From the NCBI RefSeq assembly GCF_050920415.1, contig NZ_CP169309.1: DNA of 64,000 bases; one strand, 5' to 3'. The DNA is from Escherichia coli (GTDB lineage Bacteria > Pseudomonadota > Gammaproteobacteria > Enterobacterales > Enterobacteriaceae). A model generated the notes under the pieces. That model worked only from the letters and a program-made list of their open reading frames with translations, searched no databases and was not told the DNA's origin. The stretch's first letter is position 1. Each line of letters starts with the position of its first letter. Shown piece after piece: positions 9,356-54,266 of the stretch. The translations under genes and the position numbers were made by a program.

Positions 9356-10246
9356 TTGGATTTACGCGATCTGAAAACCTTCCTGCATCTGGCGGAAAGC
9401 CGCCATTTTGGCCGCAGCGCGCGGGCGATGCACGTTAGTCCATCCACGCTTTCCCGACAGATTCAGCGCCTGGAAGAAGATCTCGGTCAACCATTGTTTG
9501 TACGCGATAACCGTACGGTGACGCTGACCGAAGCGGGCGAAGAACTGCGCGTTTTCGCCCAGCAAACACTGTTGCAGTATCAGCAATTGCGCCACACCAT
9601 CGACCAGCAAGGACCGTCGCTCTCTGGCGAATTACATATCTTCTGCTCGGTGACCGCTGCCTACAGCCATCTGCCGCCGATTCTTGACAGATTCCGCGCG
9701 GAACACCCGTCAGTGGAGATCAAACTCACTACCGGTGATGCGGCGGATGCGATGGAAAAAGTGGTGACAGGGGAAGCGGATCTGGCGATTGCCGGGAAGC
9801 CGGAGACGCTGCCCGGTGCGGTGGCGTTTTCGATGCTGGAGAATCTGGCAGTGGTGCTGATCGCGCCTGCCCTACCGTGCCCGGTGCGTAATCAGGTTTC
9901 GGTAGAGAAGCCGGACTGGTCTACAGTGCCGTTTATCATGGCCGATCAGGGGCCGGTGCGCCGCCGCATTGAGTTGTGGTTCCGACGCAATAAAATCAGT
10001 AACCCGATGATTTACGCCACGGTTGGCGGGCATGAAGCGATGGTTTCGATGGTGGCGCTCGGCTGCGGCGTGGCATTGTTGCCGGAAGTGGTGCTGGAAA
10101 ACAGCCCGGAACCGGTGCGTAACCGCGTGATGATTCTGGAGCGTAGCGATGAGAAAACGCCGTTTGAGCTGGGCGTTTGTGCACAAAAAAAGCGGCTGCA
10201 TGAGCCGCTGATTGAGGCTTTCTGGAAGATTTTACCGAACCATTAA
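9356..10246 (+). CDS. ilvY: LysR-family transcriptional regulator IlvY
   Basis: ORF 9272..10246 contains [40 protein letters not shown] (LysR HTH). The start is probably the TTG at 9356, since no in-frame ATG precedes the HTH. Confidence 0.85.
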
Positions 10247-11787
10247 CCTGCCAAAAAGAACCTGAACGCCGGGTTATGGGTTTCATCGTGGCAATCGTAG
10301 CCCAGCTCATTCAGCCGGGTTTCGAAATCCGGTTCGTGGTCGCCAAGCTCGAACGCCGCCAGTACGCGTCCGTAGTCGGTACCGTGGCTGCGATAATGGA
10401 AAAGCGAAATGTTCCAGTGGGTACCTAGCGTGTTGAGGAAGCGCAGCAGCGCGCCCGGCGATTCCGGGAACTCGAAGCTGTAGAGGCGTTCCTGCAACGG
10501 ATGCGATGGACGCCCGCCAACCATATAGCGCACGTGTAGCTTCGCCATTTCGTCGTCGGAGAGATCAACCACGCTGTAGCCGCCATCGTTGAGCATCTGC
10601 AAAATTTCTTTGCGCTCTTCGAGGCCGCGGCTTAAGCGCACGCCGACAAAGATGCAGGCGTTTTTGGCATCGGCAAAACGGTAGTTGAACTCGGTGACCG
10701 AACGCCCGCCAAGCAACTGGCAGAATTTGAGGAAGCTGCCCTTCTCTTCCGGAATGGTCACCGCCAGCAACGCTTCACGCTGTTCGCCCAGTTCGCAGCG
10801 TTCCGAGACGTAGCGCAGGCCGTGAAAGTTCACGTTAGCACCGGAAAGAATATGCGCCAGCCGTTCGCCGCGAATATTGTGCTGGGTGATGTATTTTTTC
10901 ATCCCTGCCAGCGCCAGCGCGCCAGAGGGTTCCGCCACCGCGCGCACATCTTCGAATAAATCCTTCATCGCCGCACAGATAGCATCACTATCGACGGTGA
11001 TGATGTCGTCGAGATACTCCTGGCACAAACGGAAGGTTTCATCGCCGATGCGTTTTACCGCAACACCTTCGGCAAACAGCCCTACGCGCGGCAAATCAAC
11101 CGGATGACCCGCATCCAGCGCCGCTTTCAGGCAGGCGGAGTCTTCCGCTTCCACGGCGATCACTTTGATTTGCGGCATCAGCTGTTTGATCAGCACCGCC
11201 ACACCCGCCGCCAGGCCGCCGCCGCCGACCGGCACAAATACGCGATCGAGATGAGCGTCCTGCTGGAGCAGCTCCAGCGCCAGCGTGCCTTGCCCAGCGA
11301 TCACCATCGGGTGGTCGAACGGTGGCACCCAGGTGAAGCCCTGCAGCTGTGACAGTTCGATCGCTTTCGCTTTTGCTTCGTCAAAGTTCGCGCCATGAAG
11401 CAACACTTCGCCGCCAAAGCCGCGTACCGCATCAACTTTGATATCGGCGGTGGCGGTTGGCATGACGATCAGCGCCTTCACGCCTAACCGTGCGGAAGAA
11501 AACGCCACGCCCTGCGCGTGATTACCCGCCGAGGCAGTGATCACGCCATGCGCTTTTTGTTCTTCCGTCAGGCCCGCCATCATGGCGTATGCACCGCGCA
11601 GCTTAAAGCTGTGTACCGGCTGGCGATCTTCGCGCTTCACCAGAATCACGTTATCAAGACGCGACGAGAGCTTTTCCATTTTTTGTAGCGGCGTGACCTG
11701 CGCCGCCTCGTAAACCGGTGCACGTAGCACCGCTCTTAAATATTCGGCGCCTTCCGGAGCACCAGACAGGGGTTGTGAGTCTGCCAT
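10243..11787 (-). CDS. ilvA: Threonine dehydratase, biosynthetic
   Basis: 515-aa ORF beginning [21 protein letters not shown], with a PLP-dependent fold and C-terminal regulatory domains; the start overlaps the ilvD stop. Confidence 0.95.
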   Translation of the reverse strand: MADSQPLSGAPEGAEYLRAVLRAPVYEAAQVTPLQKMEKLSSRLDNVILVKREDRQPVHSFKLRGAYAMMAGLTEEQKAHGVITASAGNHAQGVAFSSARLGVKALIVMPTATADIKVDAVRGFGGEVLLHGANFDEAKAKAIELSQLQGFTWVPPFDHPMVIAGQGTLALELLQQDAHLDRVFVPVGGGGLAAGVAVLIKQLMPQIKVIAVEAEDSACLKAALDAGHPVDLPRVGLFAEGVAVKRIGDETFRLCQEYLDDIITVDSDAICAAMKDLFEDVRAVAEPSGALALAGMKKYITQHNIRGERLAHILSGANVNFHGLRYVSERCELGEQREALLAVTIPEEKGSFLKFCQLLGGRSVTEFNYRFADAKNACIFVGVRLSRGLEERKEILQMLNDGGYSVVDLSDDEMAKLHVRYMVGGRPSHPLQERLYSFEFPESPGALLRFLNTLGTHWNISLFHYRSHGTDYGRVLAAFELGDHEPDFETRLNELGYDCHDETHNPAFRFFLAG

Positions 11788-11789
11788 CA

Positions 11790-26504: not shown

Positions 26505-27932
26505 ATGAGCGATAAAAAGAAGCGCAGTATGGCGGGTTTGCCGTGGATCGCGGCGATGGCCTTCTTCATGCAGGCACTTGATGCCACTATTCTGAATACC
26601 GCCTTACCCGCAATCGCTCATAGCCTTAATCGTTCTCCTCTCGCGATGCAATCAGCCATCATCAGTTACACGCTGACGGTGGCGATGCTTATTCCGGTAA
26701 GCGGATGGCTAGCCGATCGCTTCGGTACGCGTCGCATATTTACCCTTGCCGTGAGTCTGTTCACATTGGGTTCTCTGGCCTGCGCACTTTCTAACTCGCT
26801 ACCACAGCTGGTTGTCTTCCGGGTTATTCAGGGGATAGGTGGCGCAATGATGATGCCTGTTGCTCGGCTGGCCTTACTGCGTGCTTATCCTCGTAATGAG
26901 CTTCTTCCTGTATTGAATTTTGTCGCCATGCCGGGTCTGGTGGGGCCAATTTTAGGCCCCGTACTTGGCGGCGTGCTGGTCACCTGGGCAACCTGGCACT
27001 GGATATTTTTAATCAATATCCCCATAGGTATTGCCGGCCTTCTTTACGCGCGCAAACATATGCCCAATTTCACCACCGCACGACGCAGATTCGATATCAC
27101 TGGCTTTTTGCTGTTTGGCCTCAGCCTTGTTCTCTTCTCAAGCGGAATAGAGCTATTCGGTGAAAAGATTGTCGCCAGTTGGATTGCCTTGACGGTAATT
27201 GTCACCAGCATCGGGTTACTGCTTCTCTATATTCTCCATGCACGACACACGCTAAACCCATTAATTTCATTAGATTTATTTAAAACCCGCACTTTCTCGA
27301 TCGGTATAGTAGGCAATATTGCAACCCGTCTGGGGACCGGCTGTGTACCGTTCCTTATGCCATTGATGTTACAGGTAGGATTTGGTTATCAGGCGTTTAT
27401 TGCCGGCTGTATGATGGCACCGACAGCATTAGGTTCCATTATTGCAAAATCGATGGTTACCCAAGTCTTACGTCGTCTGGGCTATCGCCATACGTTAGTG
27501 GGGATCACGGTAATTATTGGGCTAATGATCGCTCAGTTCTCTTTGCAATCACCAGCAATGGCGATATGGATGCTGATCTTGCCGTTATTTATATTAGGGA
27601 TGGCTATGTCGACGCAATTTACCGCGATGAATACCATCACACTTGCCGATCTGACCGATGACAACGCCAGCAGCGGTAACAGTGTTCTGGCGGTCACGCA
27701 GCAACTGTCTATCAGTTTAGGCGTTGCTGTAAGTGCGGCCGTCCTTCGCGTTTATGAAGGGATGGAAGGCACAACGACTGTCGAACAATTCCACTATACG
27801 TTTATCACAATGGGCATTATTACTGTTGCTTCAGCAGCAATGTTCATGCTTCTGAAAACAACCGATGGTAATAATTTGATCAAAAGACAGCGTAAATCTA
27901 AGCCGAACCGCGTTCCATCAGAATCGGAGTAA
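26505..27932 (+). CDS. hsrA: MFS transporter HsrA/YieO (14-TMS drug:H+ antiporter-like)
   Basis: 475-aa hydrophobic [44 protein letters not shown]... Confidence 0.88.
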
Positions 27933-28890
27933 GTTGTAATCGTTGTTGCTGAAGGGTCGGCTGGGTTATCCGATGGATGAGTACATCAATCGCCAGCTCC
28001 CCCAGTTCATCTTTCGGTTGATGGATAGTGGTTAATGGTGGCGTCATAAAGCTTGCCAGTTCGATATCGTCATAGCCAATCACCGCGATATCCTGCGGAA
28101 CCTGTAACTCTGCCTGATATAGCGCCTGGTAAACGCCAACAGCCATAGCGTCATTTCCGGTAAAGACGGCCTGAGGACGCAGCGGATGTGATAACAGTTG
28201 GCGCATAGCGTCAAACCCACCGTTAAATTCAAAATCACCCGTAACTTCATAACCATCGGGAATGTTGAGACCAGCTCTCTTCATCGCCGCCCGATAACCT
28301 TCTAACCGCAGGCGCGCCGGTGTTTTATCCAGCGGGCCAGTAATACAAGCAATACGGGTATGACCTTTATCGATCAGATATTGCGTTGCTAAGTCTCCGC
28401 CCAGCAACGAGTTATCCTGAATAAGATCGCTGTCGCCGTCGAACGGTGCCCAGTCCATCATCACGGTAGGCACTGTCGGATAACGTTGCATGATTTCACG
28501 CGAAGGCTGATGCGTTTCGGTGCACAGTAACAGCAAGCCATCAACGCGTTTTTGCATCAGCGTTTCCAGATTGCGATTCATCCGCTGTTCATCGCCTTCG
28601 GTATTGCAAAGGACAAGACTATAACCGCGTTCGAAGCAGCTGCGTTCAACGCCACGCACCAGTTCAGAATAGAAAGGATTGGTACTGGCAGTGATCAACA
28701 TGCCAATAGTATGTGTTTGATTGAGTTTGAGGCTACGCGCCAGAGCTGATGGCGCGTAATTGAGTTCTTTAATCGCCGCTTCAACTTTGGCGGTAATCGC
28801 TTCACTGACGAAGCGATCTTTATTGATAACGTGAGAAACTGTTGAGGTAGAAACGCCCGCCAGGCGGGCAACATCTTTCATTGTAGCCAA
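27898..28890 (-). CDS. rbsR: Ribose operon repressor (LacI family)
   Basis: 330-aa [58 protein letters not shown] (LacI HTH). Confidence 0.93.
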
Positions 28891-28893
28891 GCG

Positions 28894-29823
28894 TCACCTC
28901 TGCCTGTCTAAAAATGCGTCGATCTCTTCACGCCACGGTACGGAAGGTTGTGCGCCTTTACGTGTTACGGCAATCGCAGCGGCGGCATGGGCAAAACGAA
29001 TCGCCTCTGGCAATGGTTTTTCTTCCAGCAACGCCGTGATTAACGCGCCGTTAAAAGTATCTCCGGCAGCAATGGTATCGACAGCCTGCACCCGGAATCC
29101 AGGAACGCGCTGACCTTCACCATTCACGCTAGCCCACACACCACGACTTCCTAAGGTGATCAGTACGGTACGGATACCTTTTTCATGCAGTACCTGCGCG
29201 GCCTTCGCTGCATCTTCATCATTTTCAACGCGAATACCGGTGAGCTTTTCTGCTTCCGTTTCATTTGGCGTAATAATGTCCACCAGAGCCAGCAGTTCGT
29301 CAGGAAGTTCACGAGCCGGAGCTGGGTTAAGCGCAACGATAGTCTTATTTTGATGGGCGATTTTCGCCGCTGCCATCACACTTTCGAGTGGTGATTCCAG
29401 CTGCATTAATAATGCCGATGCGTTAGCAATACGCTCACGTTGCGCCTCCACCAACGCAGGGGAAAGGGCTGCGTTAGCGCCGGCATGAATACCAATGACA
29501 TTCTCACCTTCGCCATTAACAAAAATCAGCGCCACACCTGTTGATTCGCCTTTGATCACGCTCACCGGAGAAATATCGATGTTATCAGTGGCGAGCTGCT
29601 GGCGAACGCTCTCACCAATACTGTCATCACCCGTACAGGCAATAAACGCGATATTCGCACCGCTACGCCCAGCAGCCACAGCCTGATTAGCGCCTTTGCC
29701 GCCAAATGCAACCTGATAGTGATTACCGGTTACGGTTTCGCCTGGAGTAGGAAAAGATTGAAGATTAAGAATGTGGTCAGCATTAATGCTGCCAAGAACA
29801 ACGAGGCTGCCTGCGTTTTGCAT
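28894..29823 (-). CDS. rbsK: Ribokinase
   Basis: ORF 28894..29850; the internal ATG at 29823 gives MQNAGSLVVLGSINADHILNLQSFPTPGETVTGNHYQVAFGGKGANQAVAA (PfkB family). Confidence 0.92.
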   Translation of the reverse strand: MQNAGSLVVLGSINADHILNLQSFPTPGETVTGNHYQVAFGGKGANQAVAAGRSGANIAFIACTGDDSIGESVRQQLATDNIDISPVSVIKGESTGVALIFVNGEGENVIGIHAGANAALSPALVEAQRERIANASALLMQLESPLESVMAAAKIAHQNKTIVALNPAPARELPDELLALVDIITPNETEAEKLTGIRVENDEDAAKAAQVLHEKGIRTVLITLGSRGVWASVNGEGQRVPGFRVQAVDTIAAGDTFNGALITALLEEKPLPEAIRFAHAAAAIAVTRKGAQPSVPWREEIDAFLDRQR

Positions 29824-29948
29824 ATTCGGGATGTCCATAAAATGCGCCACCGTGTTAGGGTGGCGCGTGCCCTGCTTTTCTTTATTTTACACGTTCATCT
29901 GTCGATGACGTATTTATGTCACCATCAGGTCATACAACCTGATTAAAA

Positions 29949-30839
29949 CTACTGCTTAACAACCAGTTTCAGATCAACCGGATACTTAGCCTGAACTTTC
30001 TCGCCTTTCAGCACTTTATCGGCGGTTTCGACGCCTTTCGCGCCAATCTGATCGGGTAGCTGAGCGATAGTCGCTGCTAGTTTGCCATCATTCACCGCTT
30101 TTTCGCCATCCGGTGTACCGTCAAATCCGACGACCATCACATCCGATTTACCAGCAGTTTGCAGTGCGCGCAGCGCGCCCAGCGCCATTTCATCATTCTG
30201 CGCGAACACAGCCTGAACATCCGGATGAGCGGTCAACAGGTTCTGCATTACGTTCAAACCTTTGGTGCGGTCAAAGTCCGCTGGCTGGCTGGCAAGAACA
30301 TTAAACTTGTGAGCAGCAACGGCCTGCTGGAAACCTTCGCCACGCTCACGAGCTGCGGAGGTACCGGCAATGCCTTGCAGCTCGATAACTTTGGCACCTT
30401 CACCCGCTTTCTTCGCGATATAATCACCCGCGATTTTGCCGCCCAGTACGTTATCAGAAGCAATGTGGCTCACCACTTCACCTTTCGTGGCCTGGCGGTC
30501 AAGAGTGATAACCGGAATGTTCGCCTGGTTAGCCATCTTCACAGCATTACCCACTGCGTCGGAGTCGGTCGGGTTAATCAGCAGAATTTTGGTGCCGCGA
30601 ACAGTTAAGTCCTGCACGTTCGCCAGCTCTTTCGCCGGATTGTTCTGGGAGTCCAGCACCACCAGGTTATAGCCGAGTTTATCCGCCTCTTTCTGCGCAC
30701 CATCTTTCAGCGATACAAAGAACGGGTTGTTAAGCGTGGAAACCACCAGCGCGATGGTGTCTTTTGCCATCGCATTCGCACTGACGGTGGCGCTTAGCGC
30801 AACAGCGGAAACCAGGGTAGCCAGTTTTTTCATGTTCAT
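29949..30839 (-). CDS. rbsB: Ribose ABC transporter periplasmic binding protein
   Basis: ORF 29949..30845; [41 protein letters not shown] (signal peptide plus PBP fold). Confidence 0.93.
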
Positions 30840-30863
30840 ATTCAAGATGTCCTGTAGTCGTTA

Positions 30864-31829
30864 TTACTGTTTTTTGTTGTCTACCAGCACCGCCAGCAAA
30901 ATCACCACCGCTTTGACGATCATCTGGTAATAGGAGGAAACACCTAACAAATTCAATCCATTATTAAGGAAGCCAAGAATTAATGCGCCGATCAACGTCC
31001 CAACAATGCGACCTTTTCCGCCCGCCAGACTCGTACCGCCCAGAACCACCGCAGCAATTGCATCCAGCTCATAGCCAGTCCCCGCCGTGGGTTGTGCGGA
31101 GGAGAGACGCGCCACTTCAATGATCCCGGCCAGCGATGCCAGCAGACCACAAAGAGAATAGACGATGATTTTGATTTTATTGACGTTGATACCAGAAAGA
31201 CGCGTAGCCGCTTCGTTGCCGCCCAGCGCGTAGATGTAACGCCCCAAACGTGTGTGATGCAGCATGTACCAGGCCGCGAGGAACACAATCCCCATGATCC
31301 AGACTGGCGTCGGTACGCCCAGCGGACGACCAATACCAAACCAGCCGAACAGATCGGCGTTCTCAGTAAAGCCGGTATTCACTGGGCTACCGTTGGTATA
31401 AACCATGGTCACGCCGCGCAGTAAAAGCATCATAACCAGCGTAGCGATAAACGCCTGGACGCGACCTTTCGCTACAATCACCCCGGTTACCGCACCAATA
31501 GCGGCACCTAACGCGAGAGCGGCAGCGACAGCCACCAGCGCATTGACTTCAATGCCGACGATAGATGCAGCTACTGCGCCAGTCAGCGCCAACAGAGAAC
31601 CTACTGACAAGTCGATGCCCGACGTCAGGATCACCAGCGTCATCCCGACCGCCATAATGGCATTCACCGAGGTTTGCTGGAGAATATTGAATAAGTTATT
31701 GATGGTGAAAAAGTTCGGGCTTAACGTCGAGACAATCGCGATCAGCACCAGCAGAGCGATAAGCGATTTCTGCTCCATCAGCCACGCTTTCGTGAAATAA
31801 CGGCGACCAGAGACAGTCTGGGTTGTCAT
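30864..31829 (-). CDS. rbsC: Ribose ABC transporter permease
   Basis: 321-aa hydrophobic ORF MTTQTVSGRRYFTKAWLMEQKSLIALLVLIAIVSTLSPNFF... Confidence 0.93.
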   Translation of the reverse strand: MTTQTVSGRRYFTKAWLMEQKSLIALLVLIAIVSTLSPNFFTINNLFNILQQTSVNAIMAVGMTLVILTSGIDLSVGSLLALTGAVAASIVGIEVNALVAVAAALALGAAIGAVTGVIVAKGRVQAFIATLVMMLLLRGVTMVYTNGSPVNTGFTENADLFGWFGIGRPLGVPTPVWIMGIVFLAAWYMLHHTRLGRYIYALGGNEAATRLSGINVNKIKIIVYSLCGLLASLAGIIEVARLSSAQPTAGTGYELDAIAAVVLGGTSLAGGKGRIVGTLIGALILGFLNNGLNLLGVSSYYQMIVKAVVILLAVLVDNKKQ

Positions 31830-31833
31830 TTTT

Positions 31834-33339
31834 TTACTCCTGATTCACGCGATTAAGCTTGCCCACAGCGGCAGCCATTAACACTTCCTGGGTGGCCTGC
31901 TCACGAGTAAATTCCCCGCTGAGATGCCCTTCATGCATGACGATGATGCGATCGCTCATGCCTAATACTTCTGGCATCTCCGATGACACCAGAATGATGC
32001 TCAAGCCATCGGCTTTGAACTGGTTAATCAGTTGATAGATCTCTTTTTTCGCACCAACATCTACGCCACGGGTAGGTTCATCAAGAATCAACACTTTGGG
32101 GCGTGTCATCAGTCCACGGGCAATCGCCACTTTTTGCTGATTGCCACCGGAGAGCAAACCAATTGCCTGTTCCATCGACGGCGTTTTCACATTAAACAGA
32201 CGAATAAAATCACTCACTGCCTGCTGTTCATCGGCATGCTTCAAACTGCCGCCAGTACGGCTAAAGTAACGCAGCGCAGTCAGCGACATATTCTCTTTGA
32301 CTGACATACCCAGCACTAAACCGTCACGTTTGCGGTCTTCGGAGATATACACAATGCCGTTTGCCAGGCCATCCTGCGGTGAACGGGTAACGACTTCATG
32401 CCCATCCAGAGTGACGTAACCGCTGGTGCGCGGCAGTGCGCCGTAGAGCACTTTCATCAGTTCAGTACGACCTGCGCCCATCAAACCAGAGACGCCAAGA
32501 ATTTCACCTTTGCGTAAGGTAAATGAAACATCATTAACGCCAGGTCCGCAGAGATTATCGACTTTCAGGCGGATATCGCCCGGCGCTTTGTCCAGGTGTG
32601 GATATTGATCTTCCAGCTTGCGGCCCACCATCATCTCAATCAGCGAATCTTCGGTCAGTGATGCCACTTCGCGCTCAGCAATAAATTGCCCGTCACGAAA
32701 AACAGTAACGTCATCGCAAATTTCGAAGATTTCTTTCATGCGGTGGGAGATATAGACAATACCGCGGCCTTGCGATTTCAGCTCGCGGATGACGCGGAAC
32801 AAGGATTCGGTTTCGGTATCGGTCAGTGCATCGGTCGGTTCATCCATAATGATGACTTTCGACTCAAAGCTCAGCACTTTGGCAATTTCAACCATTTGCT
32901 GGTCACCGATGGAAAGATCGCCCACCAGCTTGTCACTTTTAAAACGCAGGTTAAGTTTAGCCAGCAATTTATCCGCTTCGGCATACATGGTTTTCCAGTC
33001 AATTTTGCCAAAGCGATTAACAAACTCACGACCGAGGAAAATGTTTTCGGCAATGGTTAACTGCGGGATCAGGTTCAGTTCCTGATGGATGATTCCAATG
33101 CCGGCTTCCTGGGATGATTTCGGTCCGGTAAACGTCGTTTCTTTCCCCAGCCATAAAAGCGTACCGGCATCGCGAGTATAGATACCAGTAAGCACTTTCA
33201 TCATGGTGGATTTACCCGCGCCGTTTTCGCCCACCAGCGCCATCACGCGGCCAGGATAGACATTTAACGCTGCGCCCGAGAGGGCTTTTACGCCCGGGAA
33301 GGCTTTATCGATGCCTTTAAGCTGAAGTAATGCTTCCAT
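31834..33339 (-). CDS. rbsA: Ribose ABC transporter ATP-binding protein (duplicated ABC domains)
   Basis: 501-aa [51 protein letters not shown] with two Walker A/ABC-signature sets. Confidence 0.94.
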
Positions 33340-33346
33340 GACGGCC

Positions 33347-33766
33347 TCAGAACGTCACGCCAGCATAGAGAATGATATTCGCATACGGAGAACATTCTCC
33401 GCTGCGAATTACCGCCTGACTTTCTGCGGTTTGTTGTTTGAATTGTTCATGCGTGGTGTAACGAATTTCAATGGTATTTCCCTGGTGTTTTTGCAGCTGC
33501 TCAAGGTGAGTGAGCAACGTTTCGTGGAGTTGCGGATTATGTTGTTTGATCTCTTCCGCGATAATGGCAGCCTCGACCTGCATTTCATTTGTGACGACGC
33601 CCAGCACCTGCATAAAAGAAGGTACCCCCTGGGTTAATGCCATATCGATACGCGTTGTACTTTTGGGGATGGGTAAACCAGCATCACACACCACCAGCGT
33701 ATCGGTATGTCCCAGACGGGAGATCACCGAAGAAATATCAGAATTAAGAACGGTGCCTTTTTTCAT
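33347..33766 (-). CDS. rbsD: D-ribose pyranase
   Basis: ORF 33347..33778; the internal ATG at 33766 gives [35 protein letters not shown] (139 aa). Confidence 0.9.
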
Positions 33767-33777
33767 TTTTTTCTCCA

Positions 33778-33797
33778 TCAGCGAAACGTTTCGCTGA
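33778..33797. promoter_or_regulatory. rbs operator: perfect 20-bp palindrome (RbsR binding site)
   Basis: tcagcgaaacgtttcgctga is a perfect inverted repeat about 12 nt upstream of the rbsD start; LacI-family operators are typically such palindromes. Confidence 0.65.
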
Positions 33798-33932
33798 CCC
33801 GCAGTTTAATCCTGACTGAGTTGGGAAAACCATCGTGACGTTACGGAAATGTGATCAACATCGAAACGTTTTACATGGTGATTAACCATGAAAACAAAAA
33901 CGCCCCCTTATGGAGAAAGGAGGCGTCTGGCG

Positions 33933-35801: not shown

Positions 35802-36023
35802 AGACTAGTCTTTCGTTGAAATATGAAATGTGTGCTTAGTCCCTTGGCCCACAAAAAAGCGCACAGTATGCACGATTAACGACAAAATCGTACTCCTAAA
35901 TGCGGCCACATTAACCTGGCTCAAAGAAAAATAGACCTCTTTTGAGACTATTTTAGCCACCAGCAAGAAACGTCTATACTCGCAATTTACGCAGAACTTT
36001 TGACGAAAGGACGCCACTTCATT

Positions 36024-38965: not shown

Positions 38966-38969
38966 ACAA

Positions 38970-39962
38970 TTACAGCAGAGAAGGGACGCTCTCGCGAACA
39001 GCTGCCGGCCATACACCACACTGAACCTGGCCGATATGTGGCAGTTGCAGCAGCAGCATGGTCAAACGAGACTGCCCGATACCGCCGCCGATGGTCTGCG
39101 GCATTTCACCGCGCAGCAGCGCCTGATGCCACTCCAGCTGCAGACGATCTTCATCACCGGTCAGCGCCAGCTGATGTTTCAACGTATCGGCATCCACGCG
39201 GATCCCCATGGAAGAAAGCTCAAACGCATCTTCCAGTACCGGGTTCCATACCAGAATATCGCCGTTCAGACCCGCATGGCCCAGCTCTGACGGGGTGCTC
39301 CAGTCATCATAATCCGGTGCGCGCACGTCGTGACGATGACCATCACTCAACTTGCCGCCAATCCCGACGAGGAATACAGCGCCAAGATCTTTCGCAATCG
39401 CCCGCTCACGTCCTTTGGCATCGAGATCCGGATAACGAGCCAGTAACTCCTGGCTGTGTACGAAGTGGATCTGATCCGGCAGGAACGGTGCCAGGCCAAA
39501 CTCTTCGCTAACTGCAGCTTCGGTTGCTTTAATTCCCGCCCAGATCGCCTCTACCGTGCTTTTCAGAGTCGAGAATTGACGCTCGCCGTCGCCCATTACG
39601 CGCTCCCAGTCCCACTGGTCTACATAGATCGAGTGCAGCGGGGAAAGACGGTCTTCATCGGGGCGAAGGGCTTTCATGTGCGTGTATAGCCCTTCGCCCG
39701 CGCTGAAGTCATGTTGCCCTAAGGTCTGACGTTTCCACTTCGCCAGTGAATGAACCACTTCGAACTGGGCATCAGGCAGAGCTTTCACTTTTACCTGCAC
39801 CGCTTTTTCACAGCCCGACAAGTTATCCTGCGTGCCATCCCCCACACGGCTAAGAATCGGCGCCTGGACTTCGATCAGCCCCAGACGTTCTTCCAGTTGA
39901 CGAGAAAAGTGAGATTTCACGAAGCTAATTTGACGTTGTTTGGCAATGTAAGCGGTTTTCAT
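38970..39962 (-). CDS. asnA: Aspartate-ammonia ligase (asparagine synthetase A)
   Basis: 330-aa [53 protein letters not shown]... Confidence 0.95.
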
Positions 39963-40113
39963 TTTTTATACTCCTGCGTCCTGTTGCTTATGATTAAGCA
40001 ACAAAAACCGACACACATGCAATAATCATTCAATAAAAAGCCTCACACACTTTTGATTCATTAAAAAAGAAGGCTAAAATAGAGTGATTCTTCAATCTGC
40101 ATAAGAAAATCCT

Positions 40114-40572
40114 ATGGAAAATTATCTGATCGACAATCTGGACCGCGGCATCCTGGAAGCATTAATGGGTAATGCGCGTACCGCTTACGCCGAACTGGCG
40201 AAACAATTTGGCGTCAGTCCGGGGACGATTCACGTTCGTGTAGAGAAAATGAAGCAGGCGGGGATCATTACCGGGGCACGTATTGATGTCAGCCCGAAGC
40301 AGCTCGGTTATGACGTAGGCTGCTTTATCGGCATTATATTAAAGAGCGCCAAAGACTATCCTTCCGCGCTGGCAAAGCTGGAAAGCCTCGATGAAGTCAC
40401 TGAAGCCTATTACACAACTGGCCACTACAGCATCTTTATCAAAGTGATGTGCCGTTCGATCGATGCTCTCCAGCATGTACTTATCAACAAGATCCAAACA
40501 ATTGATGAAATTCAGTCCACTGAGACACTGATCGTCCTGCAGAACCCGATCATGCGTACCATTAAGCCATGA
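40114..40572 (+). CDS. asnC: Lrp/AsnC-family transcriptional regulator AsnC
   Basis: 152-aa ORF MENYLIDNLDRGILEALMGNARTAYAELAKQFGVSPGTIHVRVEKMKQAGII, divergent from asnA. Confidence 0.95.
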   Translation: MENYLIDNLDRGILEALMGNARTAYAELAKQFGVSPGTIHVRVEKMKQAGIITGARIDVSPKQLGYDVGCFIGIILKSAKDYPSALAKLESLDEVTEAYYTTGHYSIFIKVMCRSIDALQHVLINKIQTIDEIQSTETLIVLQNPIMRTIKP

Positions 40573-40661
40573 TCGGCTTTTTTAATCCCATACTTTTCCA
40601 CAGGTAGATCCCAACGCGTTCACAGCGTACAATACGCCACTCTTAATAAAGGTGGCGGTTT

Positions 40662-41105
40662 ATGGCAGATATCACTCTTATCAGCGGCAGCACCCTCGGC
40701 GGTGCCGAATATGTAGCAGAACACTTGGCTGAAAAGCTGGAAGAGGCGGGTTTTACCACCGAAACGCTGCACGGTCCGCTGTTGGAAGATTTATCTGCCT
40801 CGGGGATCTGGCTGGTTATCAGCTCAACCCACGGTGCCGGAGATATTCCGGACAACCTTTCTCCTTTCTATGAAGCATTGCAGGAACAGAAGCCCGATCT
40901 TTCTGCGGTCCGCTTTGGCGCTATCGGTATTGGCAGTCGTGAATATGACACCTTTTGTGGGGCTATCGATAAACTCGAGGCAGAACTCAAAAATTCCGGT
41001 GCAAAACAGACAGGCGAAACACTGAAGATCAACATCCTTGATCACGACATTCCGGAAGATCCGGCAGAAGAATGGCTGGGATCGTGGATTAATTTACTCA
41101 AATAA
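40662..41105 (+). CDS. mioC: Flavodoxin-like FMN-binding protein MioC
   Basis: 147-aa ORF MADITLISGSTLGGAEYVAEHLAEKLEEAGFTTETL... Confidence 0.93.
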   Translation: MADITLISGSTLGGAEYVAEHLAEKLEEAGFTTETLHGPLLEDLSASGIWLVISSTHGAGDIPDNLSPFYEALQEQKPDLSAVRFGAIGIGSREYDTFCGAIDKLEAELKNSGAKQTGETLKINILDHDIPEDPAEEWLGSWINLLK

Positions 41106-41119
41106 GTATACAGATCGTG

Positions 41120-41395
41120 CGATCTGTTGTGGATAACTCTGTCAGGAAGCTTGGATCAACCGGTAGTTATCCAAAGAACAACGGTTGTTCAGTTTTTGAG
41201 TTGTGTATAACCCCTCATTCTGATCCCAGCTTATACGGTCCAGGATCACCGATCATTCACAGTTAATGATCCTTTCCAGGTTGTTGATCTTAAACGCCGG
41301 ATCTTTGTTATCCACAGGGAAGTGCGATCCTAATAAGAGATCACAATAGAACAAATCTCTAAATAAATAGATCTTCTTTTTAATACCCAGGATCC
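41120..41395. other. oriC: Chromosomal replication origin oriC
   Basis: DnaA 9-mer boxes: tgtggataa at 41128..41136, ttatccaaa at 41167..41175, tgtgtataa at 41202..41210, ttatccaca at 41308..41316. AT-rich 13-mer region gatctnttnttt at about 41330..41385, many GATC (Dam) sites, and ggatcc at 41390..41395; flanked by mioC and mnmG. Confidence 0.88.
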
Positions 41396-41483
41396 CAGGT
41401 CTTTCTCAAGCCGACAAAGTTGAGTAGAATCCACGGCCCGGGCTTCAATCCATTTTCATACCGCGTTATGCGAGGCAATCACC

Positions 41484-43373
41484 ATGTTTTATCCGGATCC
41501 TTTTGACGTCATCATCATTGGCGGGGGTCATGCAGGCACCGAGGCCGCGATGGCCGCGGCGCGTATGGGTCAACAGACTCTGCTTTTGACACACAATATC
41601 GACACTCTGGGGCAGATGAGCTGCAACCCGGCGATCGGCGGTATTGGGAAGGGACATCTGGTAAAAGAAGTGGATGCACTCGGCGGCCTGATGGCTAAAG
41701 CGATCGATCAGGCGGGTATCCAGTTTAGGATACTAAACGCAAGCAAGGGACCGGCAGTTCGCGCTACCCGAGCTCAGGCGGATCGTGTGCTCTACCGTCA
41801 GGCGGTACGTACGGCGCTGGAGAACCAACCGAACCTGATGATCTTCCAGCAGGCGGTTGAAGATCTTATTGTCGAAAACGATCGCGTGGTCGGTGCTGTT
41901 ACCCAAATGGGACTGAAGTTCCGTGCCAAAGCCGTCGTGCTCACCGTTGGGACGTTCCTCGACGGTAAAATTCATATCGGTCTGGATAACTACAGCGGTG
42001 GCCGTGCTGGTGATCCGCCGTCCATTCCGCTTTCTCGCCGTTTGCGTGAACTGCCGCTGCGCGTTGGTCGTCTGAAAACCGGGACACCGCCGCGTATTGA
42101 TGCTCGAACCATCGACTTTAGCGTGCTGGCGCAACAGCATGGCGATAACCCAATGCCGGTATTCTCGTTTATGGGCAATGCGTCCCAGCATCCACAGCAG
42201 GTGCCGTGTTATATCACCCATACCAACGAGAAAACCCATGACGTGATCCGCAGTAACCTCGATCGTAGCCCAATGTACGCAGGGGTGATCGAAGGTGTCG
42301 GCCCACGCTACTGCCCGTCGATCGAAGACAAAGTCATGCGCTTCGCCGACAGAAATCAGCATCAGATCTTCCTTGAACCGGAAGGGCTGACCTCTAACGA
42401 AATTTATCCGAACGGTATCTCCACCAGCCTGCCGTTCGATGTGCAGATGCAAATCGTCCGCTCCATGCAGGGGATGGAAAACGCGAAGATCGTGCGTCCG
42501 GGTTATGCCATTGAGTATGACTTCTTCGATCCACGCGACCTGAAACCGACGCTGGAGAGCAAGTTTATCCAGGGGCTGTTCTTTGCTGGTCAGATTAACG
42601 GCACTACCGGTTACGAAGAAGCCGCTGCGCAAGGTTTGCTGGCCGGTCTTAACGCTGCCCGTCTGTCTGCTGACAAAGAAGGTTGGGCTCCGGCGCGTTC
42701 TCAGGCGTATCTCGGCGTACTGGTTGATGACCTGTGCACTTTAGGAACCAAAGAACCGTATCGTATGTTTACCTCGCGTGCAGAATATCGCCTGATGCTG
42801 CGCGAAGATAATGCAGATCTGCGTTTGACTGAAATCGGTCGTGAACTGGGCCTGGTGGATGACGAACGTTGGGCGCGCTTTAACGAGAAGCTTGAGAACA
42901 TCGAGCGTGAGCGTCAGCGTCTGAAATCGACATGGGTAACCCCGTCGGCGGAAGCTGCAGCCGAAGTGAATGCTCACCTGACTGCGCCGCTTTCCCGTGA
43001 AGCCAGTGGTGAAGATCTGCTGCGTCGTCCGGAAATGACTTATGAAAAATTAACCATGCTGGCGCCTTTTGCCCCTGCGTTGACAGACGAACAGGCGGCG
43101 GAACAGGTTGAGATTCAGGTTAAATACGAAGGTTATATTGCGCGCCAACAAGATGAGATCGAAAAGCAGCAGCGTAACGAGAATACCTTGCTGCCAGCGA
43201 CGCTGGATTACCGCCAGGTATCCGGTCTTTCTAACGAAGTGATCGCCAAACTTAACGATCACAAACCGGCTTCTATCGGTCAGGCTTCGCGTATTTCTGG
43301 CGTCACGCCTGCTGCCATCTCCATTCTACTGGTGTGGCTAAAAAAACAGGGTATGCTGCGTCGTAGCGCATAA
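41484..43373 (+). CDS. mnmG: tRNA uridine 5-carboxymethylaminomethyl modification enzyme MnmG (GidA)
   Basis: 629-aa [40 protein letters not shown] with an FAD-binding GGGHAG motif. Confidence 0.95.
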
Positions 43374-44676: not shown

Positions 44677-45881
<1,205 letters not shown>

Positions 45882-45909
45882 TTTACCAACACTACTACGT
45901 TTTAACTGA

Positions 45910-46184
<275 letters not shown>

Positions 46185-46228
46185 TAAAGAGCAATATCAG
46201 AACGTTAACTAAATAGAGGCATTGTGCT

Positions 46229-46699
46229 GTGAATCTTAACGCAACAATCCTCGGCCAGGCCATCGCGTTTGTCCTGTTCGTTCTGTTCTGCATGAAGTAC
46301 GTATGGCCGCCATTAATGGCAGCCATCGAAAAACGTCAAAAAGAAATTGCTGACGGCCTTGCTTCCGCAGAACGAGCACATAAGGACCTTGACCTTGCAA
46401 AGGCCAGCGCGACCGACCAGCTGAAAAAAGCGAAAGCGGAAGCCCAGGTAATCATCGAGCAGGCGAACAAACGCCGCTCGCAGATTCTGGACGAAGCTAA
46501 AGCTGAAGCAGAGCAGGAACGTACTAAAATCGTGGCCCAGGCGCAGGCGGAAATTGAAGCCGAGCGTAAACGTGCCCGTGAAGAGCTGCGTAAGCAAGTT
46601 GCTATCCTGGCTGTTGCTGGCGCCGAGAAGATCATCGAACGTTCCGTGGATGAAGCTGCTAACAGCGACATCGTGGATAAACTTGTCGCTGAACTGTAA
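46229..46699 (+). CDS. atpF: F0F1 ATP synthase subunit b
   Basis: 156-aa ORF (GTG start) [44 protein letters not shown]... Confidence 0.96.
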
Positions 46700-46713
46700 G
46701 GAGGGAGGGGCTG

Positions 46714-47247
46714 ATGTCTGAATTTATTACGGTAGCTCGCCCCTACGCCAAAGCAGCTTTTGACTTTGCCGTCGAACACCAAAGTGTAGAACGCTGGCAG
46801 GACATGCTGGCGTTTGCCGCCGAGGTAACCAAAAACGAACAAATGGCAGAGCTTCTCTCTGGCGCGCTTGCGCCAGAAACGCTCGCCGAGTCGTTTATCG
46901 CAGTTTGTGGTGAGCAACTGGACGAAAACGGTCAGAACCTGATTCGGGTTATGGCTGAAAATGGTCGTCTTAATGCGCTCCCGGATGTTCTGGAGCAGTT
47001 TATTCACCTGCGTGCTGTGAGTGAGGCTACCGCTGAGGTAGACGTCATTTCCGCTGCCGCGTTGAGTGAACAACAGCTCGCGAAAATTTCTGCTGCGATG
47101 GAAAAACGTCTGTCACGCAAAGTTAAGCTGAATTGCAAAATCGATAAGTCTGTAATGGCAGGCGTTATCATCCGAGCGGGTGATATGGTCATTGATGGCA
47201 GCGTACGCGGTCGTCTTGAGCGCCTTGCAGACGTCTTGCAGTCTTAA
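46714..47247 (+). CDS. atpH: F0F1 ATP synthase subunit delta
   Basis: 177-aa [46 protein letters not shown]... Confidence 0.96.
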
Positions 47248-47259
47248 GGGGACTGGAGC

Positions 47260-48801
47260 ATGCAACTGAATTCCACCGAAATCAGCGAACTGATCAAGCA
47301 GCGCATTGCTCAGTTCAATGTTGTGAGTGAAGCTCACAACGAAGGTACTATTGTTTCTGTAAGTGACGGTGTTATCCGCATCCACGGCCTGGCCGATTGT
47401 ATGCAGGGTGAAATGATCTCCCTGCCGGGTAACCGTTACGCTATCGCACTGAACCTCGAGCGTGACTCTGTAGGTGCGGTTGTTATGGGTCCGTACGCTG
47501 ACCTTGCCGAAGGCATGAAAGTTAAGTGTACTGGCCGTATCCTGGAAGTTCCGGTTGGCCGTGGCCTGCTGGGCCGTGTGGTTAACACTCTGGGTGCACC
47601 AATCGACGGTAAAGGTCCGCTGGATCACGACGGCTTCTCTGCTGTAGAAGCTATCGCCCCGGGCGTTATCGAACGTCAGTCCGTAGATCAGCCGGTACAG
47701 ACCGGTTATAAAGCCGTTGACTCCATGATCCCAATCGGTCGTGGTCAGCGTGAATTGATCATCGGTGACCGTCAGACCGGTAAAACCGCACTGGCAATCG
47801 ATGCCATCATTAACCAGCGCGATTCCGGTATCAAATGTATCTATGTCGCTATCGGCCAGAAAGCGTCCACTATTTCTAACGTGGTACGTAAACTGGAAGA
47901 GCACGGCGCACTGGCTAACACCATCGTTGTGGTAGCAACCGCGTCTGAATCCGCTGCACTGCAATACCTGGCGCCGTATGCCGGTTGCGCAATGGGTGAA
48001 TACTTCCGTGACCGCGGTGAAGATGCGCTGATCATTTACGATGACCTGTCTAAACAGGCTGTTGCTTACCGTCAGATCTCCCTGCTGCTCCGTCGTCCGC
48101 CAGGACGTGAAGCATTCCCGGGCGACGTATTCTACCTCCACTCTCGTCTGCTGGAGCGTGCTGCGCGTGTTAACGCCGAATACGTTGAAGCCTTCACCAA
48201 AGGTGAAGTGAAAGGGAAAACCGGTTCTCTGACCGCGCTGCCGATTATCGAAACTCAGGCGGGTGACGTTTCTGCGTTCGTTCCGACTAACGTAATCTCC
48301 ATTACCGATGGTCAGATCTTCCTGGAAACCAACCTGTTCAACGCCGGTATTCGTCCTGCGGTTAACCCGGGTATTTCCGTATCCCGTGTTGGTGGTGCAG
48401 CACAGACCAAGATCATGAAAAAACTGTCCGGTGGTATCCGTACCGCTCTGGCACAGTATCGTGAACTGGCAGCGTTCTCTCAGTTTGCATCCGACCTTGA
48501 CGATGCAACACGTAAGCAGCTTGACCACGGTCAGAAAGTGACCGAACTGCTGAAACAGAAACAGTATGCGCCGATGTCCGTAGCGCAACAGTCTCTGGTT
48601 CTGTTCGCAGCAGAACGTGGTTACCTGGCGGATGTTGAACTGTCGAAAATCGGCAGCTTCGAAGCCGCTCTGCTGGCTTACGTCGACCGTGATCACGCTC
48701 CGTTGATGCAAGAGATCAACCAGACCGGTGGCTACAACGACGAAATCGAAGGCAAGCTGAAAGGCATCCTCGATTCCTTCAAAGCAACCCAATCCTGGTA
48801 A
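47260..48801 (+). CDS. atpA: F0F1 ATP synthase subunit alpha
   Basis: 513-aa [47 protein letters not shown]... with Walker A GDRQTGKT. Confidence 0.97.
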
Positions 48802-48851
48802 CGTCTGGCGGCTTGCCTTAGGGCAGGCCGCAAGGCATTGAGGAGAAGCTC

Positions 48852-51124
<2,273 letters not shown>

Positions 51125-51144
51125 CGCCTTAATCGGAGGGTGAT

Positions 51145-51564
51145 ATGGCAATGACTTACCACCTGGACGTCGTCAGCGCAGAGCAACAAATGTTCTCTGG
51201 TCTGGTCGAGAAAATCCAGGTAACGGGTAGCGAAGGTGAACTGGGCATTTACCCGGGCCACGCACCGCTGCTCACCGCCATTAAGCCTGGTATGATTCGC
51301 ATCGTGAAACAGCACGGTCACGAAGAGTTTATCTATCTGTCTGGCGGCATTCTTGAAGTGCAGCCTGGCAACGTGACCGTTCTGGCCGACACCGCAATTC
51401 GCGGCCAGGATCTCGACGAAGCGCGAGCCATGGAAGCGAAACGTAAGGCTGAAGAGCACATTAGCAGCTCTCACGGCGACGTAGATTACGCTCAGGCGTC
51501 TGCGGAACTGGCCAAAGCGATCGCGCAGTTGCGCGTTATCGAGTTGACCAAAAAAGCGATGTAA
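51145..51564 (+). CDS. atpC: F0F1 ATP synthase subunit epsilon
   Basis: 139-aa [57 protein letters not shown]... Confidence 0.96.
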
Positions 51565-51586: not shown

Positions 51587-51615
51587 GCCAGTCTGGAAAC
51601 AGACTGGCTTTTTTA
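51587..51615 (+). terminator. atp operon rho-independent terminator
   Basis: gccagtct-ggaaac-agactggc followed by TTTTTTAT, immediately after atpC. Confidence 0.85.
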
Positions 51616-51760
51616 TATGTATTTTGCTGATTGATACAAAAATTATATTATTCATCAAAAAGTTAGCGTCTTGTTAAGTCGTTAATTGTCACCTTTTCTC
51701 CATAGTGATATCGTCCCTGTTGTTATTATTATTTCTATAATTATATGAGGGATCATATCT

Positions 51761-52734: not shown

Positions 52735-54105
52735 ATGTTGAATAATGCTATGAGCGTAGTGATCCTTGCCGCAGGTAAAGGCACGCGCATGTATTCCGAT
52801 CTTCCGAAAGTGCTGCATACCCTTGCCGGGAAAGCGATGGTTCAGCATGTCATTGATGCTGCGAATGAATTAGGCGCAGCGGACGTTCACCTGGTGTACG
52901 GTCACGGCGGCGATCTGCTTAAACAGGCGCTGAAAGACGATAACCTGAACTGGGTGCTTCAGGCAGAACAGCTGGGTACGGGCCATGCAATGCAGCAAGC
53001 CGCACCTTTTTTTGCCGATGACGAAGACATTTTAATGCTCTACGGCGACGTGCCGCTGATCTCTGTTGAAACACTCCAGCGCCTGCGTGATGCGAAACCG
53101 CAGGGTGGCATTGGTCTGCTGACGGTTAAACTGGATGATCCGACCGGTTATGGACGTATCACCCGTGAAAACGGCAAAGTTACCGGCATTGTTGAGCACA
53201 AAGATGCCACCGACGAGCAGCGTCAGATTCAGGAGATCAACACCGGCATTCTGATCGCCAACGGCGCAGATATGAAACGCTGGCTGGCTAAACTGACCAA
53301 CAATAACGCGCAGGGCGAATACTACATCACCGATATTATTGCGCTGGCGTATCAGGAAGGACGTGAAATTGTTGCCGTTCATCCGCAACGTTTAAGCGAA
53401 GTAGAAGGCGTGAATAACCGCCTGCAACTCTCGCGTCTGGAGCGTGTTTATCAATCCGAACAAGCTGAAAAACTGCTGTTAGCAGGCGTTATGCTGCGCG
53501 ATCCGGCGCGTTTTGATCTGCGCGGTACGCTTACTCACGGGCGCGATGTTGAAATTGATACTAACGTTATCATCGAGGGCAACGTGACTCTCGGTAATCG
53601 CGTGAAAATCGGCACCGGTTGCGTGATTAAAAACAGCGTGATTGGCGATGATTGCGAAATTAGCCCGTATACCGTTGTGGAAGATGCGAATCTGGCAGCG
53701 GCCTGTACCATTGGCCCGTTTGCCCGTCTGCGTCCTGGTGCTGAGTTGCTGGAAGGCGCACACGTCGGTAACTTCGTTGAGATGAAAAAAGCGCGTCTGG
53801 GTAAAGGCTCGAAAGCCGGTCATCTGACTTACCTGGGGGATGCGGAAATTGGCGATAACGTCAACATCGGCGCAGGAACCATTACCTGCAACTACGATGG
53901 TGCGAATAAATTTAAAACCATTATTGGCGACGATGTGTTTGTTGGATCCGATACTCAGCTGGTGGCCCCGGTAACGGTAGGCAAAGGCGCAACCATTGCT
54001 GCGGGTACAACTGTGACGCGTAATGTTGGCGAAAATGCTCTGGCAATCAGCCGTGTGCCGCAGTCGCAAAAAGAAGGCTGGCGTCGTCCGGTAAAGAAAA
54101 AGTAA
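52735..54105 (+). CDS. glmU: Bifunctional GlcNAc-1-P uridyltransferase / GlcN-1-P acetyltransferase
   Basis: 456-aa [51 protein letters not shown]... with C-terminal hexapeptide repeats. Confidence 0.96.
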
Positions 54106-54266
54106 TTCTGGCTGGGTAATCCGGCCATATGGGGTGAGGAGATAACATAATCTCCCGCCCACAAGCAGTAACTATAAAAATAACCCCACTCTCTACAAAG
54201 GCTCGGGGCGCCCGAAAAACGGGCATACAGGTTGACCGACAACGATATAAATCGGAATCAAAAACT

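What the first reader, a model, noticed from the sequence alone, without database searches (positions are those of the whole stretch)
41120..41395. oriC lies in this window; strand orientation of highly expressed operons flips around it
DnaA boxes, AT-rich 13-mers and dense GATC sites mark oriC between mioC and mnmG. rrnC, the ilv and rbs operons (at lower coordinates) are on the minus strand, while the atp operon, glmUS and pstS (at higher coordinates) are on the plus strand. All are therefore co-directional with replication forks leaving the origin.
Basis: partly seen in the sequence, partly recalled or inferred. Interest (0 to 1): 0.3.

Follow-up and report, generated by a model that had tools for sequence, protein, structure and literature searches.

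The report
Escherichia coli chromosomal replication origin oriC

Summary
The observation and the interpretation both hold. Window 41120-41395 is the reverse complement of positions 1-276 of classical E. coli oriC and matches K-12 at 269 of 276 bases. It lies between mioC (ends 41105) and mnmG (starts 41484).

- **Origin elements:** The AT-cluster, the L/M/R 13-mers, DnaA boxes R1, R5M, R2, R3, C1 and R4, and the IHF, Fis and Rob sites all sit at the homologous positions.
- **GATC density:** It is 43 per kb here against 4.8 per kb for the window.
- **DnaA boxes:** The only two perfect TTATCCACA boxes in 64 kb are R1 and R4.
- **GC skew:** The cumulative minimum is at 41516.
- **Gene orientation:** All 19 features to the right are on the + strand. 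To the left, 27 of 40 are on the - strand, including rrnC, ilv, rbs and rho/trxA.

This is already known biology and of low interest.

The only non-textbook detail is that the middle 13-mer reads GATT instead of GATC (window 41354). Three of 5,426 complete E. coli genomes carry this variant. None of the species-representative genomes scanned carries it, while 70 enterobacterial representatives keep GATC. Published single-site GATC mutants suggest it is nearly neutral.

The parts
41120..41395 (-). oriC, classical positions 1-276 (the classical top strand is the window's - strand). The stretch from the L 13-mer to R4, 41128-41373, is about 246 bp.
   Evidence: Matches K-12 oriC at 269 of 276 bases. 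Lies between mioC and mnmG.
41374..41389 (-). AT-cluster flanking the duplex-unwinding element (TGGGTATTAAAAAGAA)
   Evidence: Identical to K-12. Its role is described in PMC9198467.
41361..41373 (-). L 13-mer, GATCTATTTATTT
41345..41357 (-). M 13-mer, GATTTGTTCTATT. This is a variant: K-12 has GATCTGTTCTATT, and the changed base is window 41354.
   Evidence: The variant is in 3 of 5,426 E. coli genomes, against 5,407 genomes that match the canonical K-12 stretch.
41330..41342 (-). R 13-mer, GATCTCTTATTAG
41308..41316 (+). DnaA box R1, TTATCCACA (perfect consensus)
41277..41289 (-). IHF binding core, GATCAACAACCTG
   Evidence: Identical to K-12. Site sequence taken from PMC4285127, Table 2.
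41253..41261 (+). Low-affinity DnaA box R5M (TCATTCACA on the + strand)
   Evidence: Identical to K-12
41202..41210 (-). DnaA box R2, TTATACACA
41176..41190 (-). Fis site, GAACAACCGTTGTTC. The central base differs from K-12 (A to C, window 41183).
   Evidence: Site sequence from PMC4285127. In the 10 origins aligned, this position is A, C or G.
41167..41175 (+). DnaA box R3 (TTATCCAAA on the + strand)
41140..41148 (-). Low-affinity DnaA box C1 (TTCCTGACA). The site sequence is recalled from memory, not checked against a paper here.
   Evidence: This stretch is identical to K-12
41128..41136 (-). DnaA box R4, TTATCCACA (perfect consensus, inverted relative to R1)
41104..41123 (-). Rob (right oriC-binding protein) site, ATCGCACGATCTGTATACTT
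   Evidence: Site sequence from PMC4285127.
40662..41105 (+). mioC, transcribed towards and into oriC
   Evidence: Annotation of the near-identical genome NZ_CP169399.1
41484..43373 (+). mnmG (gidA), transcribed away from oriC
20087..25310 (-). rrnC operon: 16S, tRNA-Glu, 23S, 5S, tRNA-Asp, tRNA-Trp. Co-directional with the leftward fork.
   Evidence: Same gene order as K-12 rrnC.
10243..16798 (-). ilvLXGMEDA operon (ilvG is intact here)
27898..33766 (-). rbsDACBKR operon
44677..51564 (+). atpIBEFHAGDC operon. Co-directional with the rightward fork.
52735..56096 (+). glmUS
62966..64000 (+). pstS (3' end near or just beyond the window end), first gene of pstSCAB-phoU. The coordinates are shifted by the IS2 insertion relative to the reference genome.

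Best explanation
The interval is the single chromosomal replication origin, oriC, of an Escherichia coli strain. The strain belongs to a lineage 3-7% diverged from K-12 across this region.

Mechanism, taken from established E. coli work and not tested here:
1. DnaA sits on the high-affinity boxes R1, R2 and R4.
2. ATP-DnaA fills the low-affinity boxes between them. IHF helps by bending the DNA between R1 and R5M.
3. The AT-rich 13-mers at 41330-41373 unwind.
4. DnaA oligomers hold the T-rich single strand through its TT[A/G]T(T) motifs.
5. Two DnaB helicases are loaded and forks leave in both directions.
6. After firing, SeqA binds the hemimethylated GATC sites and sequesters the origin until Dam remethylates them.

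Because forks leave at about 41.2-41.4 kb, the + strand is the leading strand to the right (G exceeds C) and the lagging strand to the left (C exceeds G). Selection against head-on collisions between replication and transcription has placed rrnC, ilv, rbs and rho/trxA on the - strand to the left, and mnmG-rsmG, atp, glmUS and pst on the + strand to the right.

This allele has 7 substitutions relative to K-12. None lies in a 9-mer R box or in the IHF core. One removes the GATC of the middle 13-mer, and I infer it to be nearly neutral.
For: - **Orthology and synteny:** the 801 bp around the site match 5,424 of 5,426 complete E. coli genomes, with a median of one place per genome, always on the chromosome. 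The features under the match are annotated mioC and mnmG. K-12 annotates oriC at the homologous position.
- **Sequence:** 269 of 276 bases are identical to K-12, and every checked element is at the homologous coordinate.
- **GATC:** nine-fold enrichment.
- **DnaA boxes:** the only two perfect boxes in the window are R1 and R4, in inverted orientation and 180 bp apart.
- **GC skew:** the cumulative minimum at 41516 is robust to masking rrnC and IS2.
- **Orientation:** right side 19 of 19 on +; left side 27 of 40 on -; Fisher P about 6e-7.
- **rRNA and tRNA strands:** confirmed directly on the window.
- **Mechanism:** PMC5716108, PMC9198467 and PMC4285127.
Against: Nothing in the sequence argues against it. 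The limits are these:
- Origin firing was not measured. Everything rests on orthology and sequence signatures.
- The skew minimum lies about 120 bp outside the stated interval, inside the start of mnmG. That is well within the noise of a skew curve; values at 41000, 42000 and 42500 are within 35 counts of the minimum.
- A third of the genes on the left are head-on.
- The middle 13-mer departs from a sequence that is otherwise conserved across Enterobacteriaceae.
Confidence: 0.97

Rival explanations
1. The oriC allele in this lineage behaves differently from the standard one. Loss of the GATC in the middle 13-mer (GATC to GATT) removes one Dam/SeqA site and one AGATCT ATP-DnaA 6-mer. It also adds one A:T pair and a new TTGTT motif on the T-rich strand. 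Unwinding, initiation timing or sequestration would then be measurably altered.
For: The variant is real and rare: 3 of 5,426 complete genomes carry it, while 5,407 match the canonical K-12 stretch. The GATC at this position is kept in 70 species representatives from about 20 enterobacterial genera, and no representative has the variant. The change creates TTGTT, which fits the TT[A/G]T(T) motif for DnaA binding to single-stranded DNA (PMC9198467). It also destroys an AGATCT 6-mer (PMC4285127). The same change appears on two different oriC haplotypes.
Against: In K-12, ten oriC GATC sites were each mutated to GTTC. Only the site inside R5 disturbed initiation synchrony, and growth rate was unaffected (PMC5145175). 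The published TTGT and TTATT motifs, the other two 13-mers and all R boxes are intact. Ten of the 11 GATC sites between the L 13-mer and R4 remain. Strains carrying the variant were isolated from three unrelated sources, so it is clearly viable.
Confidence: 0.1
2. The skew change and the strand bias reflect local gene content, such as the G-rich rRNA operon and long operons that happen to face outwards. On this reading they do not mark replication direction, and the origin-like motifs are a non-functional or secondary copy.
For: rrnC alone contributes the steepest part of the skew curve (skew -0.14 to -0.19 over 20-25 kb). Window-wide counts of the loose DnaA-box and 13-mer motifs are at chance level.
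Against: The minimum stays at 41516 after masking rrnC and IS2. Skew is -0.0375 over 25.4-41.1 kb, which contains no rRNA, and +0.0436 over 41.4-59.5 kb. The locus is single-copy in nearly every E. coli genome. It is the experimentally defined origin in K-12.
Confidence: 0.01

Closest known systems
Escherichia coli K-12 oriC (NC_000913.3 3925744-3925975; classical positions 1-276)
   Same: Same flanking genes and orientation: mioC reads into the origin and mnmG/gidA reads away from it. Same length with no indels, and 269 of 276 bases identical. The AT-cluster, the L and R 13-mers, R1, R5M, R2, R3, C1, R4, the IHF core, and the H-NS and Rob sites are all identical.
   Different: There are seven substitutions, at classical positions 42, 76, 92, 101, 213, 269 and 270:
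- Position 42 turns the GATC of the middle 13-mer into GATT.
- Position 92 removes the second BamHI site next to R1.
- Position 213 is the central base of the Fis site.
- Positions 269-270 directly flank R4.

The stretch from the L 13-mer to R4 holds 10 GATC sites against 11 in K-12.
oriC of other Enterobacteriaceae (Escherichia albertii, E. whittamii, Salmonella, Citrobacter, Klebsiella, Enterobacter)
   Same: Same architecture. The 13-mers, the R boxes and most GATC sites are conserved across these genera.
   Different: The window differs from K-12 at 7 positions, E. albertii at about 18 and E. whittamii at 6. Unlike all 70 species representatives found, it lacks the GATC in the middle 13-mer.
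Engineered single-GATC oriC mutants of Jha and Chattoraj 2016 (PMC5145175)
   Same: One Dam/SeqA site in oriC is inactivated while the rest of the origin is left intact.
   Different: Those mutants are laboratory GATC-to-GTTC changes in K-12. This is a natural GATC-to-GATT change on a diverged haplotype. The paper's site numbering could not be tied to the middle 13-mer with certainty, because its figure is not held.

Membership tests
Enterobacterial (E. coli-type) oriC | Lies in the mioC-gidA(mnmG) intergenic region, with asnC/asnA on one side and rsmG-atp on the other | tested here: met
   mioC 40662-41105 (+) and mnmG 41484-43373 (+). Synteny with K-12 holds across the window.
Enterobacterial (E. 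coli-type) oriC | Direct sequence homology to the experimentally defined K-12 oriC | tested here: met
   269 of 276 bases identical, no indels
Enterobacterial (E. coli-type) oriC | Three tandem AT-rich 13-mers (consensus GATCTnTTnTTTT) at one edge, forming the duplex-unwinding element | tested here: met
   L is at 41361-41373, M at 41345-41357 and R at 41330-41342, all on the - strand. L and R are identical to K-12. M carries GATT in place of GATC.
Enterobacterial (E. coli-type) oriC | [quoted passage not shown] | tested here: met
   R1 41308-41316 (+), R2 41202-41210 (-), R4 41128-41136 (-). R1 and R4 are the only two perfect boxes in 64 kb.
Enterobacterial (E. coli-type) oriC | Low-affinity DnaA boxes (R5M, tau1/2, I1-3, C1-3) in the gaps between the R boxes | tested here: met
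   R5M, R3 and C1 were checked by sequence and are identical to K-12. The stretches holding tau2, I1, I2, I3, C2 and C3 have no substitution. Positions 92 and 101 fall between R1 and the IHF core, where tau1 is placed. The exact 9-mers of the I, tau and C sites come from memory, not from a tool.
Enterobacterial (E. coli-type) oriC | IHF and Fis binding sites | tested here: met
   The IHF core is identical. The Fis site has one substitution at the centre of its palindrome, a position that is A, C or G in the 10 origins aligned.
Enterobacterial (E. coli-type) oriC | Strong over-representation of GATC (11 sites in the minimal origin) | tested here: met
   Twelve sites in oriC 1-276 (K-12 has 13). 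Ten between the L 13-mer and R4 (K-12 has 11). Density is 43 per kb against 4.8 per kb.
Enterobacterial (E. coli-type) oriC | GC-skew polarity switch at the origin | tested here: met
   Cumulative minimum at 41516. None of 5000 block permutations gave as deep a V.
Enterobacterial (E. coli-type) oriC | DnaA-dependent initiation of bidirectional replication in vivo or on a minichromosome | not testable with these tools
   Needs marker-frequency sequencing or an oriC-plasmid assay.

The most novel reading that the evidence does not exclude
This lineage carries a natural oriC allele in which the middle 13-mer has lost its GATC. That site is kept in all 70 enterobacterial species representatives found and in more than 99% of complete E. 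coli genomes. The same C-to-T change sits on two different oriC haplotypes. If it were adaptive, for example by easing unwinding through an extra TTGTT DnaA-binding motif on the single strand or by weakening SeqA or IciA control of the unwinding element, it would be a natural experiment on how much of the 13-mer sequence is really constrained.
Probability: 0.1. Interest if true: 0.3.

Novelty: already known. Interest (0 to 1): 0.08.

Why it matters
It mostly serves as a positive control. The first-stage reader located a textbook feature to the exact base from raw sequence, and every test it proposed passes. Knowing that oriC is at 41.1-41.4 kb fixes the replication direction for everything else in the window. 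That helps when interpreting strand bias, skew and the orientation of insertions such as the lpf island and IS2.

The rare GATT allele of the middle 13-mer is a small natural data point on how robust the origin is to losing one Dam/SeqA site. It agrees with the published mutagenesis.

Tried and rejected
- **Loose motif counts:** Window-wide counts are uninformative. TTWTNCACA gives 9 matches against 5.5 expected, and 13 of 100 shuffles reach 9. The 13-mer consensus with up to 3 mismatches gives 178 against 174 expected. Only the clustering, tandem arrangement and homology carry weight.
- **rrnC as the cause of the skew minimum:** Rejected. Masking rrnC and IS2 leaves the minimum at 41516.
- **The GATT variant as a sequencing error:** Rejected. 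It is present in three independent complete assemblies.
- **The variant as inherited from a sister species:** Rejected. No species-representative genome carries it, while the canonical pattern finds 70.
- **Identifying the source genome:** The best match, MFDS1022581, is 99.985% identical over 59.5 kb but lacks the IS2 insertion. No complete E. coli genome has IS2 at this site, so the exact strain is not in that collection.
- **Linking site #1 of PMC5145175 to the middle 13-mer:** The text implies it, but the figure is not held, so this stays an inference.

Full report
**What the window is.** An 801-bp query around the finding matches 5,424 of 5,426 complete E. coli genomes, with a median of one place per genome and always on the chromosome. 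The features under the match are annotated mioC and mnmG. The best match is strain MFDS1022581 (NZ_CP169399.1). It is collinear with the window at 99.985% identity over 59.5 kb, apart from one insertion in the window. Against K-12 the window is the reverse complement of roughly 3,910,491-3,967,261. Identity is 93-99% per kb, so this is a fairly diverged E. coli lineage. Only 7 genomes are at least 99% identical at this locus.

**Checking the observation.** K-12 annotates oriC at 3925744-3925975, between mnmG and mioC. Aligning it to the reverse complement of window 41090-41480 gives an alignment with no internal gaps. Window position equals 41396 minus the classical oriC position.

Every element checked is at the homologous place:

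| Element | Window coordinates |
|---|---|
| AT-cluster | 41374-41389 |
| L 13-mer | 41361-41373 |
| M 13-mer | 41345-41357 |
| R 13-mer | 41330-41342 |
| R1 | 41308-41316 |
| IHF core | 41277-41289 |
| R5M | 41253-41261 |
| R2 | 41202-41210 |
| Fis | 41176-41190 |
| R3 | 41167-41175 |
| C1 | 41140-41148 |
| R4 | 41128-41136 |
| Rob | 41104-41123 |

- **GATC density:** There are 13 sites in 41100-41400, or 43 per kb, against 4.8 per kb for the window. About 1.45 are expected (Poisson P about 5e-9). The next richest non-overlapping 300-bp bin has 6.
- **DnaA boxes:** The only two perfect TTATCCACA boxes in 64 kb are R1 and R4, in opposite orientation. Four of the 22 boxes with at most one mismatch lie in these 276 bp.
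- **Base composition:** The 13-mer and AT-cluster stretch (41330-41395) is 71% A+T against 49% for the window.
- **Loose motifs:** Counted over the whole window they are at chance level. The evidence is the arrangement and the homology, not the raw counts.

**GC skew.** The cumulative G-C curve falls from the left end to a global minimum at 41516 and then rises. The minimum does not move when rrnC and the IS2 element are masked. None of 5000 permutations of 500-bp blocks gave as deep a V. Skew is -0.040 over 1-41100 and +0.034 over 41400-64000, and it is still -0.0375 over the rRNA-free stretch 25400-41100. The minimum lies about 120 bp beyond the stated interval, which is within the noise of such a curve.

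**Gene orientation.** The counts use the annotation of the near-identical genome, plus direct tRNA and rRNA calls on the window.

- **Right of oriC:** All 19 features are on the + strand. They are mnmG, rsmG, atpIBEFHAGDC, a BI-1/YccA family gene, glmUS, the lpf operon and pstS.
- **Left of oriC:** 27 of 40 features, covering 66% of annotated bases, are on the - strand. They include rrnC, ilvLXGMEDA, ilvC, rbsDACBKR, kup, rep and rho/trxA.
- **Head-on genes on the left:** Thirteen genes, mostly regulators and weakly expressed genes, plus asnC and mioC, which read into the origin.

**Mechanism (established knowledge, not tested here).** DnaA occupies R1, R2 and R4. ATP-DnaA then fills the low-affinity boxes, and IHF bends the DNA between R1 and R5M. 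The M/R 13-mers unwind, and their T-rich strand is held by DnaA through TT[A/G]T(T) motifs. DnaB is then loaded (PMC5716108, PMC9198467). SeqA binds the hemimethylated GATC sites after firing (PMC4285127). All of these sequence elements are intact in the window.

**What differs from the textbook allele.** Seven substitutions separate this oriC from K-12, at classical positions 42, 76, 92, 101, 213, 269 and 270.

Position 42 (window 41354) changes the middle 13-mer from GATCTGTTCTATT to GATTTGTTCTATT. I tested how common this is with a 41-base query in which every 28-mer seed word spans the variant.

- Three of 5,426 complete E. coli genomes carry it: MB19, MFDS1022581 and N96.
- 5,407 genomes match the canonical K-12 stretch, 5,092 of them at 99% identity or more.
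- Among species-representative genomes, the variant pattern finds nothing.
- The canonical pattern finds 70 representatives across Citrobacter, Enterobacter, Klebsiella, Kluyvera, Raoultella, Kosakonia, Salmonella, E. albertii, E. whittamii and others.

MB19 carries the change on an otherwise K-12-like oriC haplotype, while the window carries it on a diverged one. So it arose at least twice or moved by a short recombination patch.

The change removes one Dam/SeqA site and one AGATCT 6-mer (PMC4285127). It adds one A:T pair and creates TTGTT on the T-rich strand, which fits the published TT[A/G]T(T) motif (PMC9198467). The functional reading of these effects is my inference.

Against any strong effect, individual GATC-to-GTTC mutations at ten oriC sites in K-12 left initiation synchrony and growth intact, except for the site inside R5 (PMC5145175). 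I therefore regard the variant as most likely nearly neutral.

**Verdict.** The finding is correct in both observation and interpretation, and it describes one of the best-characterised loci in bacterial genetics. It is already known and of low interest. The rare allele of the middle 13-mer is a minor curiosity.

Noticed in passing
window 41354 (middle 13-mer, 41345-41357): The GATC of the middle 13-mer is GATT here. Three of 5,426 complete E. coli genomes carry this, and none of the species-representative genomes does, while 70 enterobacterial species representatives keep GATC. It sits on two different oriC haplotypes (the window's lineage and strain MB19).
   Followed up: yes
window 59475-60805: A 1331-bp IS2 element with a 5-bp target duplication (CTCTC at 59470-59474 and 60806-60810) interrupts the lpfC-O113 fimbrial usher gene. 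No complete E. coli genome in the collection has IS2 at this site, so the long polar fimbria operon is probably inactive in this strain.
   Followed up: partly
window 56402-62719: An lpf-O113 long polar fimbria operon lies between glmS and pstS and is absent from K-12. Its G+C content is low, 42-46% against 51% for the window, which fits horizontal acquisition at this known insertion hotspot.
   Followed up: partly
window 51614-52494 (gene 51761-52459, + strand): An 880-bp insert between atpC and glmU encodes a Bax inhibitor-1/YccA family membrane protein (Pfam Bax1-I, E = 9e-33). It is present in only 6 of 5,426 complete E. coli genomes and absent from K-12. The insert ends exactly where a match to the sRNA family STnc410 begins (52494-52651, - strand).
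   Followed up: partly
window 6803-7252 (+ strand): An intact PemK/MazF-family toxin gene (Pfam PemK_toxin, E = 7.5e-11) sits between rep and ppiC, where K-12 has the pseudogene yifN. The annotated reference genome has no antitoxin gene beside it.
   Followed up: partly
window 14914-16560 (- strand): ilvG is intact here. In K-12 it is a frameshifted pseudogene.
   Followed up: no
window 9000-13000 and 15000-16000: The ilvC-ilvY-ilvA-ilvD stretch and part of ilvG are only 92.7-94.7% identical to K-12, while the atp operon is 99% or more. That is low for E. coli core genes and suggests a deep-branching lineage or imported DNA.
   Followed up: no
window 19068 (- strand), between maoP and hdfR: There is an exact match to the 17-bp maoS site (CTAATACTCCGCGCCAT) of the MaoP/maoS system, which organises the Ori macrodomain. 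The motif was recalled from memory, not taken from a tool.
   Followed up: partly
window 40594-40602 (+ strand): A DnaA box, TTTTCCACA, lies 60 bp upstream of the mioC start codon. This is consistent with the known repression by DnaA of mioC transcription into oriC.
   Followed up: no
window 10242-10246: About 60 bp present in K-12 between the convergent ilvY and ilvA genes is missing here, so the two coding regions overlap by 4 bp.
   Followed up: no
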